From the human T2T-CHM13v2.0 reference genome, Homo sapiens: a stretch of DNA of 64,000 nt. The notes beneath the pieces are model-generated. The model did no database searches. It was not told the DNA's origin and saw nothing but the letters and a program-made list of their open reading frames with translations. The DNA lies in the NCBI RefSeq assembly GCF_009914755.1, contig NC_060930.1; one strand, written 5' to 3'. How positions within the stretch are numbered: position 1 is the first letter of the stretch; each line of letters begins with the position of its first letter. A program made the translations under genes and the position numbers. Positions 50,570-58,195 of the stretch are shown here, piece after piece.

Positions 50570-51410
50570 CAAAAATTGAGAGGCAGAAGCACATGCGGCC
50601 AGTGGAACCTGGGATTGGTAGCTGCTGCTGAGGTGGCTATGTCGGCAGTCCAACACCGACTGCCCACAGCAGCTCTTCAAGGGTTCCCCAGAGAGGTACA
50701 AGAAGAGGCATTGGAAGTGTGGTGGTGGAAAACAGCCTCCCACAGTGACTAAAGAATCTGGAATGACTGCAAGAACAAATCAGGAATCCTGAGAGGACCC
50801 ACAGACCCTCTGAAAGAAGCAGACTGCTCCTGCAGCACCCGGAAGACACCCCAAATCCTCACAGCAGCAAGACCTGCCCAAGGAAAGTCTGAGCTCAGAC
50901 ATGCCTAGCCCTGCCCCCACCTGATGGTCCTTCCCTACCTCCCCTGGTAACTGAAGACAAAGGGCATGCACTCTTGGGAGTTCTAGGGTCCTGCCAACCA
51001 CCAGTTCCTCTTCATACTACCCCAGTTGATGTTCTCTGGAAAGTGCCACCTCCTAGCAGGAGGCCAACCGGCACAAAAATAGAACATTAAGCCACCAAAG
51101 CTAAGAACCCTCATAGAGTTCATTTTGCTCCCCTGCCATCTCCACCAGAACAAGTGCTGGTATCCTGAGAGCTGAGAGACCCATAGATGGTTCACATCAC
51201 AGGACTCTGTGCAGATAACCCCCAGTACCTTGTAGACTTGCTGGGTGGCTGGACCCAGAAGAGAGATAACAATCACTGCAGTTAAGATCTCAGGAAGCCA
51301 CATACATAGGAAAAGGGGGAGAGTACTACTTCAAGGGAACACCCGTGGGACAAAAGAATCTGAACAATAGCCTTGAGCCCTAGACCTTCCCTCTAACAGA
51401 GCCTACTCAA

Positions 51411-52424
51411 ATGAGAAGGAACCAGAAAATCAACTCTAGTAAAATGACAAAACAAGACTCTTTAACACCCCCAAAAATATCACTCTAGCTCACCAGCAAT
51501 GGATCCAAACCAAGAAGAAATCCCTGATTTACCTGAAAAAGAATTCAGGAAGTTAGTTATTAATCTAATCAGGGAGATACCAGAGAAAGGCAAAGCCCAA
51601 TACAAGGAAATCTAAAAAACAATACAAGAAGTGAAGGGAGAAATATTCAAGGAAATAGATAACATAAAGAAAAAAAAACAATCAAAACTTCAGGAAACAT
51701 TGGCATTTATAGAAATGCAAGATGCTCTGGAAAGTCTCAGCAATCGAATTGATCAAGTAGAAGAAAGAAATTCAGAGTTCAAAGACAAGGTCTTCGAATT
51801 AACCCAATCCAACAAACACAAAGAAAAAGAATAAGAAAACATGAATAAAACCTCCAAGAAGTCTGGGATTATGTTAAACCACCAAATCTAAGAATAATTG
51901 GTGTTCCTGTAAAAGAAGAGAAATCTAAAAGTTTGGAAAACGTATTTAGGGGAATAATTGAGGAAAGCTTCCCCCACCTTGCTAGAGACCTAGACATCCA
52001 AATACAAGAAACACAACATCTGCGAAATTTATCACGAAAAGACCATTGCCTAGGCACGTTGTCATCAGGCTATCTAAAGTTAAGATGAAGAAAAGAATCT
52101 TAAGAGCGTGAGACAAAAGCACCAGGTAACCTATAAAGGAAAACCTATCAGATTAATAGCAGTTTTCTCAGTAGAAACCCTAGAAGCTAAAGGGATTGGG
52201 GCCCTGTCTTCAGCCTCCTCAAATGAAACAATTATCAGCCAATAATTTTGCATACAGTGAAACTAAACATTATATATGAAGGAAAAATACAGTATTTTTC
52301 AGTTAAACAAATGCTGAGAGAATTCGCCACTACCAACCCACGACTACAAGAACTGCTAAAAGAAGCTGTAAATCTTAAAACAAATCCTGGAAATACATCA
52401 AAACAGAGCCTCTTTAAAACATAA
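51411..52424 (+). pseudogene. Disrupted L1 ORF1p
   Basis: ATG at 51411 (MRRNQK..); coiled-coil remnant ESLSNRIDQVEERNSEFKDKVFELTQ; multiple stops and frameshifts. Confidence 0.88.
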
Positions 52425-52630
52425 ATTTCACAGGACCTTTTATAGGTCCTGTATAATAAAATGTATACATTTATACAATTTATATTTTATAAATACAATA
52501 TAATATTTTGTATTATATTGTATAAATACAATATAATATTTTGTATTATATTGTATAAATACAATATAGAAAGCAGAAACAACAAAACAAAACAAACAAA
52601 CAAAAACAAGGTACACAGGCAACAAATAGC

Positions 52631-55600
52631 AAGATTAATTCTGTGCTACCTCACATCGCAATACTAACATTGAATGTAAATGGCCTAAATACTCCACTTA
52701 AAAGATACAGAATTCCAGAATGGATAAGAACTCTGCAACCATCTGCTACCTTCAGGGGACTCACCTAACACATAAGGACTAACATAAACTTAAAAGTAAA
52801 GGGATGGAAAAAGGCATTTCATGCAAATGGACACCAAAAGTGAGCAGGGATAGCTATTCTTATATCAGAGAAAACAAACTTTAAAGCAACAGCAGTTAAA
52901 AAAGACAAAGAGGTACATTATATAATGGTAAAAGTCTGACAGGAAAATATCATAATCTTAAACATATATGCACCTAACACAGTGGCTCCCAAATTTATAA
53001 AATAATTACTAATAGACCTAAGAAATGAGATAAACAGGAACACAGTAATAGTGGGGGACTTCATTACTCCACTGACAGCACAAGACAGGTTATCAAGACA
53101 GAAAGTCAACAAAGAAACAATGGATTTATACTATACCTTGGAACAAATGGACTTTACATGTATACACAGAACATTTCATCCAACAAACACTGAATTCACA
53201 TTCTATTCAACAGTGCCTGGAACTTTCTACAAGATAGACTATATGATGGTAGGCCACAAAATGAGCTGTAATAAATTTAAGAGAATTGAAATTATATAAA
53301 GCACTCTTTCAGACCACAGTGGAATAAAACTGGAAATCAACTCCAAAAGGAACCTTCAAAACCCTGCAAATACATGGTTTTGCATGTATTTATGCAAATT
53401 AAATAACCTGCTCCTGAATGAGCATTGGGTCAAAAACGAAATCAAGATGGAAATTTAAAAATTCTTCAAACTGAACCACGATAATAGCACAACCTGTCAA
53501 AACCTCGGGGATACAGCAAAGATAGTGCTAGGAGGAAAGTTTATAGCCCTAAATATCTACATCAAAAAGACTGAAATACCACAAACAGACAATCTAAGGT
53601 CACACCTCAAGGAACTAGAGAAACAAGAGCAAACCAAACCTAAACCCAGCAGAAGAAATAACCAATATCAGAGCAGAACTAAATGAAATTGAAACAAACA
53701 AAAAATACAAAAGATAAATGAAACATAAAGCTGGTTCTCTGAAAAGATAAAGAAAAAAAGATAGACCATTAGCAAAATTAACGAAGAAAAGAAGAGAGAA
53801 AACCCAAATAACCTCATTAAGACATGAAACAGGAGATATTACCACTCACACCACTGAAATACAAAAGATCATTCAAAGCTACTATGAACACCTTTACACA
53901 CATAAATTAGAAAACCTAGAAGACATGGATAAATTCCTGGAAAAATACAATCCTTCTAACTTAAAACAGGAAGAATTAGATACCCTGAACAGACCCATAA
54001 CAAGCAGTAAGATTTAAATGGTAATTTAAAAATTACCAAAAAAAAAATGTCCAGGACCAGATGTATTTACAGAAGAATTCTATCAGACATTTAAAGAAGA
54101 ATTGGTAGCAATACTTTTGACATTATTCCACAAGATAGAAAAAGAGGAAACCCTCCCTAAATCATTCTATGAAGCCAGTATCACCCTATTGCCAAAACCA
54201 GGAAAGGACCTAACCAAAATGAAAACTACAGACTGATATACCTGATGAACATAGATGCTAATACCTTTAACAAAATACTAGCTAACCGAATCCAACAACA
54301 TATAAAAAAGATAATCAACAATGATCAAGTGGGTTTCATACCAGGGATGCACAGATGGTTTAACATATGCAAGTCAATAAATGTGATACAACACATAAAC
54401 AGAATTAAAACCAAAAATCACATGATTATCTCAATAGATGCAGAAAAAGCATTCAACAAAATCCAGTATCCCTTTATGATTAAAACTCTCAGCAAAATCG
54501 GCATACACGGGACATACCTCAATGTAATAAAAGCCATCTATGACAAACCCACAGCCAACATAATACTGAATGGGGAAAAGTTGAAAGCATTCCCTCTGAG
54601 AACTGCAACAAGAAAAGGATGCCAGCTCTCACCACTCTTCAACATAGTACTGGAGGTCCTAGCCAGAGCAATCAGACAAGAGAAAGAAATAAAGGGCATC
54701 CAAATCAGTAAAGAGGAAGTCAAACTGTCACTGTTTGCTAACAATATAATCGTTTACCTAGAAAATCCTAAAGACTTCTCCAGAAAGCTCCTAGAACTGA
54801 TAAAAGAAGTCAGCAAAGTTTCCGGATAATAGAGTAATGCACACAAATCCGTAGCTCTTCTATACACCAACAGCAACCAAGTGGGGAATCAAATTAAGAA
54901 CTCAATCCTTTTTACAATAGGTGCAAAAAAAAAATACTTAGGAATATACCTAACCAAAGGGGCAAAAGACCTCTAAAGGAAAGCTACAAAACACTGCTGA
55001 AAGAAGTCATAGAAGGCATAAACAAATGAAAACACATTTTGTGCTCGTGGATGGGTAGAATCAATATGGTGAAAATGGCCATACTGCCAAAAGCAATCTA
55101 CAAATTCAATGCAATCCCTATCAAAATACCAGCATCATTCTTCACAGAATTAGAAAAAACAATTCTAAAATTCATATGGAACCAAAAAAGAACCTGCATA
55201 GCCAAAGAAAGACTAAACAAAAAGAACAAATCTGGAGGCATCACAGTACCTGATTTCAAAATATAAGGCCATAGTCACCAGAACAGCGTGGTACTGGTAT
55301 CAAAATAGTCACATAGACCAATGGAACAGAATAGAGAACCCAGAAATAAACCCAAATACTTACAGCCAACTGATCTTCGACAAAACAAACAAAAAAATAA
55401 AGTGGGGAAAGGACTACCTTTTCAACAAATTGTGCTGGGATAATGGGTTAGCCACATGTAGGAGAATGAAACTGGATCCTCTTCTCTCACCTTATACGAA
55501 AATTAACTCAAGATGGATTATGTATTTAAATCTAAGACATGAAACTATAAAAATTCTACAAGATAACATTGGAAAAACCCTTCTAGACATTGGCTCAGGC

Positions 55601-56443
55601 AAGGATTTCATGACCAAGAACCCATAAAGCAAATGCAATAAAAACAAAGATAAATAGCTCAGACTTAATTAAATTGAGGAGCTTTTGCATGGCAAAAATA
55701 ACTGTCAGCAGAGTAAACAGACAACCCACATAGTCGGAAAAAATTTTCACAATCTATACATCTGACAAAGGACTGATATCCAGAATCTACAATGATCAAG
55801 CGAATCAGTAAGAAAAAAACCCAACAATTCCATCAAAAAGTGGGCTAAGGACATGAATAGACCATTCTCAAAAGTATATATACAAATGGCCAACAAACAC
55901 ATGAAACAATGCTCAACATCACTAATGATCATGGAAATACAAATCAAAACCACAATGCAATACCACCTTACTCCTGCAAGAATGGCCATAATGAAAAAAT
56001 CAAAAAACAGTAGATATTGGTGTGGATATGGTGATCAAGGAACACTTCTACACTGTTGGTGGGAATGTAAACTAGTACAGTCGCTGTGGAAAACAGTGTG
56101 GAGATTCCTTAAACAACTAAAAGTAGAGCTACCATTTGATCCAGCAATCTCACTACTGAGTATCTACCCAGAGGAAAAGAAATCATTATACAAAAAAAGA
56201 TACTTGCACACACATTTTTACAGCAGCACAATTCACAATTGCGAAACCTTGAAGCCAACCCAAATGTCCATCAATCAACAAGTGGATAAAGAAACTGTGG
56301 TATATTTATACGATGGAATACTACTCAGCCATAAAAAGGAATGAATTAACAACATTCCCAGAGACCTGGATGAGGTTCTAAGTGAAGTAACTCAGGAATG
56401 GAAAATCAAATATCGTATTTTCTCACTGATATATGGGAGCTAA
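52631..56443 (+). pseudogene. Disrupted L1 ORF2p (endonuclease, reverse transcriptase, C-terminal domain)
   Basis: [37 protein letters not shown] (dead FADD motif), [12 protein letters not shown] fragments in several frames. Confidence 0.93.
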
Positions 56444-58195
56444 GCTACGAAGATGCAAAGGCATAACAATGACACAATGGACTTTGGGGAGTTGGGGGAA
56501 GGATGGGAGGGAGGCAAGGGTTAAAGACTACAAATAAGTTGAAGTATATACTGTTCAGGTTATGGGTGCACCACAATCTCACAAATCACCACCAAAGAAC
56601 TTACTCATGTAACCAAACATCACCTGTACCCCAATAACCTTTGAAAAAATTAAAGAAGAATTTGTATATGAAAAAAAAAAACAAATATTGAGAGCCAAAC
56701 CAAGTTCAAAAACAAACAGTAAATGTCCGATAGTGTCACTGGAGTTTAAATAACCTGGTAACAGATAAATGTTTATTGGATTTAGTCAAAAGAAAGGAAA
56801 CCGTCATGTTGGTCATAAAAATTTTCTTGGAAAGTATAAGGTTTACAGAAGTTTGCGGAAACAAATAATTATGGATATCAAAAATTAAAAGTTAAATCTT
56901 TCAGAAAGTTTTCTATGAATGTAAGAAAGAGGCAATGTAGTACAGCAGATGGTCAGGTAATCAAGTAAATTCTTCTGTGTTAGTGGGAGAAAATTAAGTT
57001 CATATAAATGAAAGAAGCTAGTGAATAAATTTTAAAAATAAATGAAATGGAATAATCAATTAATCATCGATCCAGAAAATGAAAGAGTATGAAGTATAAA
57101 TGGAATGAGTAGCTATAAGAACTAGGAAAATTTTCTATTTTGTTTTATTTTATCCATTATATCTCTTATTCCACAAGAAGAGATGTGGAAAGGATGAATT
57201 CAGGCCCTAAATTTTTAGGATTCATATCAAGATGTTAAGTCATTTTCCATCTGGTTGTGTCTATGTGCTGTATGTAAGGAGGTGAAATCTTTTCAAAATG
57301 AAGGTAACTTGGTATGCATAGGATTTAGATGATTTGAACAGTTTGAATAGCCACTTGTAAGACAGAGAGAGATGATATAGGAAAACAGAAGAATGGCTGC
57401 ATTGAGAATACAATGGGCATTAAAGCAATGTATGTCGACATTTGAAGTAATTTCGATTTTTCTAATAATGTCTAGCAAACTGAGTGCATGCACAGAGAAG
57501 TCCAAGGAGGGGTTAATTCTTGATTGGGTTGTAGTGGTTGGGTGTGATTAAAGCTTATTCTTAAACATACTTTTTTTGCACATATTAAAAGACACTAGCT
57601 CTATTTGCTGTACTCAGTCCAGTTCTAAGGAGATAGTGTCACATTTTCACTTATTGAGTGAGGGTCTCTCTGGACACGACTCAGTAAAATTTTTCTTAGC
57701 TTCAATGCTTTACTCAGAACAGTTGATCTATAGCAGAATAGCTTTTAAGGTTGTCTGGAGAAAAAAAAAATGTCTAAACAGGCTGAGATAATTAGCTGTG
57801 CCTGTCATATTCTCTGAACTCTGAAAGTCTGAATTGGTGATATGACATAAAGAACAGGAGCGAGCCAAATATATAAAGAAAAAGCACAAAAATACTTACC
57901 CAAGAGAATATGAGCTATAGGTGAGGTAAAAATAAAGATAGTTTGAAATAGAATCAAGTAATGATGAGTAATCAATAAAACACTGCTCCTGGGGTCCCAA
58001 AAGGATGACTTTCTTCCTAAAGCCACTTTAGATCATTAACAATATATGAAATCAACTAATGTAAGATGTATTCTCTTGGTGAGGCCTGGTTGTATACTCT
58101 GAATTCTGGCTAGGTGGCTGAGATTTCTGTTTGCTTTATGTCTGGGTCTTTATTACAAAATTCCATTACTAAGACAATCTGAATGAGCCCCTATT

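What the first reader, a model, noticed from the sequence alone, without database searches (positions are those of the whole stretch)
50755..50870. Two splice-like junctions in the L1PB 5'UTR (spliced retrotransposed element)
Seen: a ~98-nt L1 block (50762-50859) is followed directly by sequence from later in the 5'UTR (cagcaagacctgcccaagg), leaving only ~650 nt of L1 UTR before the ORF1 ATG. From my recollection of the L1PB consensus, the block starts just after ttttgctccAG and ends just before GTgagt, i.e. an acceptor and a donor. Inference: the block behaved as an exon, and the RNA was spliced twice before reverse transcription while retaining both ORFs. The copy would then lack the L1 promoter start. 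Spliced integrated L1s are known mainly from L1PA families.
Basis: partly seen in the sequence, partly recalled or inferred. Interest (0 to 1): 0.72.

Follow-up and report, generated by a model that had tools for sequence, protein, structure and literature searches.

The report
Spliced L1PB carrying PI4KB exons
This old, broken LINE-1 copy on chromosome 6 starts with two joined exons of the PI4KB gene and lacks a 660-base stretch that 21 other copies lack at GT-AG ends, so it likely came from a spliced LINE-1 RNA fused to a host mRNA during copying.

Summary
One insertion (50571-56697, target-site duplication 13/15) holds PI4KB exon 1 and 66 nt of a second exon, joined exactly across a 7,253-nt GT-AG intron, followed by an L1PB that begins at its base ~97.

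Junction 2 (50859/50860) removes a ~662-nt GT-AG segment. 21 other genomic copies share this deletion: 18 at the first AG, 3 at the next AG 3 nt on. More than 300 copies keep the segment. The spliced copies are not one clade (AU p=1e-4), so this is recurrent splicing, an L1PB counterpart of the SpIREs described for L1PA1-6. The chr6 junction itself carries about 3 changes.

Junction 1 (50761/50762) lies at an L1 AG, but PI4KB is cut mid-exon with no GT donor nearby. Splicing there is not shown; a template switch or RNA ligation is more likely.

Both ORFs are broken and no daughter copy was found. Both kinds of event are published. This locus and the L1PB intron were not found in my searches.

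The parts
50571..50585 (+). 5' target-site duplication
   Evidence: 13/15 identical to 56683-56697; only one other place in the 64-kb window reaches 13/15 (63931)
50586..50693 (+). Copy of PI4KB first exon (chr1:150451076-150450969, minus strand)
   Evidence: 81% over 108 nt, E 2e-19; host exon ends CAGAG|GTAAGC; CpG count 12 in host, 3 here; gene identified by PDB match of a downstream exon on the same strand
50694..50759 (+). First 66 nt of a second PI4KB exon (chr1:150443715-150443650), cut mid-exon
   Evidence: 59/66 identical; host acceptor TTTCAG|ACGTAC; 7,253-nt intron absent; no GT at the break. Exon status is inferred from the join and splice signals; I had no chr1 annotation
50760..50761 (+). 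Host-L1 joint (GG): 50761 can be the G of the L1 AG, 50760 is unassigned
50762..50859 (+). 98-nt L1PB 5'UTR block (about bases 97-194 of the element)
   Evidence: 77-89% to other copies; most copies carry ~95 nt more L1 upstream; the same block is labelled L1PB1 in PMC13174262
50860..51410 (+). Rest of the L1PB 5'UTR after removal of a ~662-nt GT-AG segment at 50859/50860
51411..52430 (+). ORF1 region, broken by stops and frameshifts
   Evidence: fragments of at most 79 aa; Pfam PF02994 and PF17490; start codon assignment recalled
52480..52568 (.). AT-rich 33-nt tandem repeat between the ORFs
   Evidence: 2.7 copies, 98% matches
52635..56345 (+). ORF2 region, broken (ends approximate)
   Evidence: longest open stretch 218 aa, RVT_1 E 1.5e-27
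56346..56682 (+). 3'UTR and decayed poly(A) tail
   Evidence: sequence read directly
56683..56697 (+). 3' target-site duplication

Best explanation
This is one dead retrotransposed insertion made of spliced PI4KB 5' exons fused to an L1PB whose 5'UTR likely lost a ~662-nt intron by splicing, with the host-L1 join likely made by a reverse-transcriptase template switch or RNA ligation rather than by the spliceosome. Shown: the anatomy, the duplication around both parts, the exact loss of PI4KB intron 1, and the recurrent GT-AG deletion in 21 other L1PB copies. Inferred: an L1PB RNA was spliced at its 5'UTR donor (TACT|GTGAGT) and acceptor (CACAG|CAG). ORF2p copied it from the poly(A) tail to about base 97, then went on along a spliced PI4KB mRNA from inside its second exon towards its 5' end. 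Later mutation blurred the L1 junction by about 3 changes.
For: TSD 13/15 abuts the PI4KB piece and the poly(A). The exon 1-exon 2 join is exact at GT/AG across 7,253 nt. 21 other copies carry the L1 deletion with no microhomology at the joint, 3 of them at the tandem AG. Three junction patterns found no copy outside that set. AG at the acceptor position in 27 of 29 unspliced copies; branch-like YTNAY at -30 in 20 of 28 (no shuffle control). One clade of spliced copies is rejected, p-AU 1.35e-4. No GT at the PI4KB break, and no L1 match in chr1:150.40-150.46 Mb. 5' truncation within the first 200 nt is common: 8 of 65 other copies, none at this AG. AG occurs 21 times in these 194 nt, so meeting an AG by chance is not rare.
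Against: Free breakpoints fit the chr6 L1 junction about 1-3 score points better than either exact splice join for all 29 templates, as expected with more freedom, but it leaves a deletion open; no other copy has this exact join. The donor count 28 of 29 is partly circular, because most of those copies were fetched with a pattern holding the donor; among 7 fetched without it, 4 keep GTGAGT. No non-human ortholog could be read.
Confidence: 0.55

Rival explanations
1. Junction 1 is spliceosomal: PI4KB exon 2 was spliced, in trans or from a since-lost intronic L1PB, onto the L1PB acceptor through a donor that has mutated away or a weak GC donor. The block would then be a true internal exon and the RNA spliced three times.
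For: The L1 part starts right after CCAG (42 of 50 copies). The CREM-L1PB1 chimera uses a host donor and the neighbouring acceptor. The host reads CTCTAG|GC four bases past the break.
Against: No GT within 21 nt upstream or 28 nt downstream of the break. The GC site would need a 2-nt deletion plus a substitution in chr6, and it has no consensus tail. No L1 found in today's PI4KB locus.
Confidence: 0.22
2. A spliced, 5'-truncated L1PB once inserted into PI4KB exon 2 on an allele that was later lost. It was transcribed from the PI4KB promoter and copied once to chr6 (5' transduction).
For: It explains a mid-exon join without a donor. The host reads CT/AAAGAATCT just before the break, a loose endonuclease site with a 9-nt would-be duplication. 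RAP1GDS1-L1PA2 is a published SpIRE driven by a host promoter.
Against: It needs two rare events; no trace at chr1; only one copy found; such A-rich sites are common.
Confidence: 0.1
3. The chr6 copy came from an unspliced L1PB and lost the 662 nt by slippage or recombination between the similar CACCCC stretches beside the donor and acceptor, mimicking the splice product.
For: The chr6 join TCCT|CACAGCAG resembles the intron end TCCCCCACAG|CAG. Free breakpoints score slightly better. The CAG-repeat region shows indels in other copies (L026, L058, L070).
Against: 0 of 21 other deletion copies have such a join, and all sit at GT-AG. The donor offset was 0 in 19 of 29 best free fits. The host part shows that the template was spliced RNA.
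Confidence: 0.1

Closest known systems
SpIRE97/622, 97/790 and 97/976 (Larson et al. 2018, PMC5860796; passages and section 8 read)
   Same: Integrated L1 copies lacking an intra-5'UTR GT-AG segment, with TSD and poly(A), as a few percent of copies: about 4% by pattern counts here (12-15 against 312; 14 against 326), 1.8% there.
   Different: Different subfamily and different donor and acceptor sequences (intron at about 195-856 of the L1PB 5'UTR). Larson's L1.3-derived probe found none in L1PB. Promoter loss was shown by reporter assay there and is untested here.
mRNA/LINE-1 5' chimeras (bioRxiv 10.1101/2025.02.02.635956 = PMC13174262; section 24, passages and all 17 rows of supplementary table mmc5 seen)
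   Same: First exons of a host mRNA, spliced, in sense orientation, fused to a near-full-length L1 inside one TSD, with no source L1 in the host gene. CREM-L1PB1 joins at almost the same L1PB position. CDC42 and CNOT1 rows also list no donor.
   Different: PI4KB is not among the 17, and the word occurs in none of 6 supplements searched (mmc7.pdf unreadable). The CREM copy keeps the L1PB intron; this one lacks it.
RAP1GDS1-L1PA2 (same paper, passages)
   Same: A spliced L1 5'UTR combined with host first exons.
   Different: There a source element lies in the host intron, the joins are at splice sites and at least two daughters are listed. Here no source, no donor and one copy were found.

Membership tests
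SpIRE | Internal deletion whose ends match a GT donor and AG acceptor of the unspliced family | tested here: met
   Family level: 17 exact, 1 with an extra C, 3 at the tandem AG, of 21
SpIRE | Exact join in this chr6 copy | tested here: inconclusive
   About 3 changes at the join; free breakpoints within a few nt fit slightly better
SpIRE | Insertion hallmarks: TSD, poly(A), endonuclease-like site | tested here: met
   TSD 13/15, decayed poly(A), TC/AAAA; checked for chr6 only, not for the other 21
SpIRE | Arises repeatedly from unspliced sources rather than as a lineage | tested here: met
   45 rows: 12 changes, 5 forced by starred branches, p-AU 1.35e-4; small sibling pairs not excluded
SpIRE | Splicing seen in RNA, and reduced promoter activity | not testable with these tools
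   Needs RT-PCR and reporter assays
mRNA/L1 5' chimera | Unique host exons, joined without intron, in sense before the L1 | tested here: met
mRNA/L1 5' chimera | One TSD encloses host part and L1 | tested here: met
mRNA/L1 5' chimera | Host part and L1 appear together in species alignments | not testable with these tools
   No other eukaryote genome is held
Spliced (cis or trans) host-L1 chimera | Host exon ends at a splice donor | tested here: not met
   Break is mid-exon; nearest GT 29 nt downstream in the human gene
Spliced (cis or trans) host-L1 chimera | L1 part begins at an acceptor AG | tested here: met
   CCAG precedes the block in 42 of 50 copies; weak evidence, 21 AG in 194 nt
5' transduction from a source L1 | Source L1 inside or next to the host gene | tested here: not met
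   No L1 match in chr1:150,400,001-150,460,000

The most novel reading that the evidence does not exclude
The L1PB 5'UTR carried its own cassette exon: an acceptor near base 96 that caught host first exons (CREM and PI4KB) and a donor at base 194 that removed 660 nt of its promoter region. An ancient L1 lineage with different splice sites thus converged on both SpIRE formation and host-promoter capture, and chr6 records a triply spliced PI4KB-L1PB RNA.
Probability: 0.22. Interest if true: 0.6.

Novelty: new variant of a known kind. Interest (0 to 1): 0.42.

Why it matters
It extends SpIRE formation to the older L1PB lineage, through different splice sites and at a similar rate of a few percent. 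That suggests intra-5'UTR splicing is a recurring cost of L1 5'UTRs, not a quirk of L1PA. It also adds a host-mRNA/L1 chimera missing from the published list of 17, one that combines both events. There is no sign of present function: the ORFs are broken, the host CpG island has decayed, and no gene is annotated in the window.

Tried and rejected
'The consensus lacks the segment': rejected, 312 and 326 unspliced matches. 'Spliced copies form a mobile lineage': rejected by the AU test; sharing of derived bases among spliced copies was not significant, permutation p 0.10. 'Other spliced copies also carry host exons': 19 of 21 keep the L1 5' end and 2 are truncated; the flanks of those 2 were not searched. 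'Daughter copies of the PI4KB chimera': only chr1 and the window matched, even at E 10 (3 candidates scored, lower bound). 'Source L1 in PI4KB': none found. A wider survey of L1PB 5' breakpoints reached only 9 of 70 further listed copies, so enrichment of breaks at the acceptor stays open. The first tree (50 rows) held long misaligned rows; five (L005, L027, L033, L074, L078) were dropped. L028, L030, L052, L056, L067, L068, L072, L075, L079 and L081 entered neither tree (short, truncated, interrupted or duplicate). Ten of the 40 matches were not fetched. No Dfam consensus was available. PMC3308168 (passages) concerns another PI4KB exon skip. The paper I wanted for L1PB ages was not held.

Full report
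Observation. A search of the window's genome with 50740-51000 scored 40 of 2,187 candidates; 30 were fetched. In unspliced copies the block is followed by GTGAGT and a segment of median 662 nt (25 of 29 between 632 and 679) ending in CACAG|CAG. The label L1PB rests on the matching block named L1PB1 in PMC13174262; no Dfam model was available.

Junction 2 is a recurrent splice. 21 copies other than chr6 lack the same segment. 17 read TACT|CAGC-type joins exactly, one has an extra C, and three join 3 nt further on at the tandem AG. There is no shared sequence on either side of the joint. Three junction patterns gave 12, 14 and 3 matches, all within these 21, against 312 and 326 for the unspliced ends. 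Reversed controls gave 0. The unspliced counts are undercounts, because each pattern spent a mismatch on a common variant, so the spliced share is about 4% or less. The acceptor AG stands in 27 of 29 unspliced copies, and a branch-like motif at -30 in 20 of 28 (no shuffle control). The donor count (28 of 29) is partly circular; 4 of 7 copies fetched without the donor pattern keep it.

Not a lineage. On 45 rows (20 spliced, 25 unspliced; dropped rows are listed under Tried and rejected) the label needs 12 changes, and one clade is rejected (p-AU 1.35e-4). Spliced copies occur on both 5'UTR haplotypes, 12 with TAGCTCCAG-like and 6 with TTGCTCCAG-like sequence. 19 of 21 keep the L1 5' end. The chr6 join has about three changes; free breakpoints a few bases away score about 1-3 points better, and no other copy shares its exact form. 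I put splicing for this copy at about 0.9, because all 21 others sit at GT-AG.

What lies upstream. 50586-50693 and 50694-50759 match two places on chr1 minus, 81% over 108 nt and 59 of 66 nt. The host reads CAGAG|GTAAGC and TTTCAG|ACGTAC, 7,253 nt apart, and the window joins them exactly. A downstream exon on the same strand matches PI4K beta in the PDB (E 1e-22), and an ATG-led reading frame starts at chr1:150440173. So these are PI4KB 5' exons; their annotation status I could not check. A 15-nt duplication (13/15) abuts the PI4KB piece and the poly(A) tail, with one chance match elsewhere in 64 kb. Host exons and L1 are therefore one insertion.

Junction 1. PI4KB is cut 66 nt into the exon, with the nearest GT 29 nt on, and one G is unassigned. 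No L1 matched in 60 kb around PI4KB. Truncation within the first 200 nt of L1PB is common (8 of 65 other copies, none at this AG, positions approximate), and AG occurs 21 times in these 194 nt. Against this, the published CREM-L1PB1 chimera joins a real donor to L1 sequence starting 6 nt upstream. I favour a template switch or RNA ligation; these two cannot be told apart here. Splicing through a lost donor (0.22) and a lost insertion in exon 2 (0.10) remain open.

State of the copy. ORF1 and ORF2 regions are recognisable (Pfam PF02994, PF17490, PF00078) but broken. The copy differs from the column majority at 6.3% of non-CpG sites, within the 4-12% of its relatives; an age of tens of millions of years for L1PB is recalled. 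The PI4KB exon 1 copy fell from 12 CpG to 3. No second copy was found.

Literature. Larson 2018 (PMC5860796; passages and section 8) defines SpIREs and found none in L1PB with an L1.3 probe. The chimera paper (10.1101/2025.02.02.635956, PMC13174262; section 24, passages, all 17 table rows) lists no PI4KB, and the word is absent from its six readable supplements; mmc7.pdf could not be read. Eight searches (listings and abstract starts seen) showed no report of an L1PB intra-5'UTR SpIRE or of this locus. Subscription journals, including the older chimera surveys, and repeat databases were not covered.

Verdict. A real, doubly processed fossil: a new variant of the SpIRE kind (an L1PB intron, 21 copies plus probably this one) and a new member of the mRNA/L1 chimera class. 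Interest 0.42.

Noticed in passing
G000 C13:94294561, C17:10867853, C7:110245516 (L013, L016, L015): Three spliced L1PB copies use the AG 3 nt downstream (tandem acceptor); they do not group in the tree.
   Followed up: yes
L005-L023, L025, L028: The set of 21 spliced L1PB copies; TSD and poly(A) were not checked for them.
   Followed up: partly
G000:C6:106410536: Unspliced L1PB hit, probably the published CREM chimera (inferred from position), about 2.3 Mb from this locus. The published sequence shares the CTGAAAGAAG variant with the chr6 copy.
   Followed up: no
window 52430-52570: AT-rich insert between the ORFs: a short inverted repeat (ACAGGACCT...AGGTCCTGT) followed by a 33-nt tandem repeat of 2.7 copies.
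   Followed up: partly
L003:1575-1885: An Alu-like element (recognised from recall) sits about 25 nt upstream of the PI4KB second-exon acceptor, flanked by an 11-nt direct repeat.
   Followed up: no
L053 and L081: Two L1PB copies on chr1 and chr16 with near-identical 5' flanks, probably a segmental duplication.
   Followed up: no
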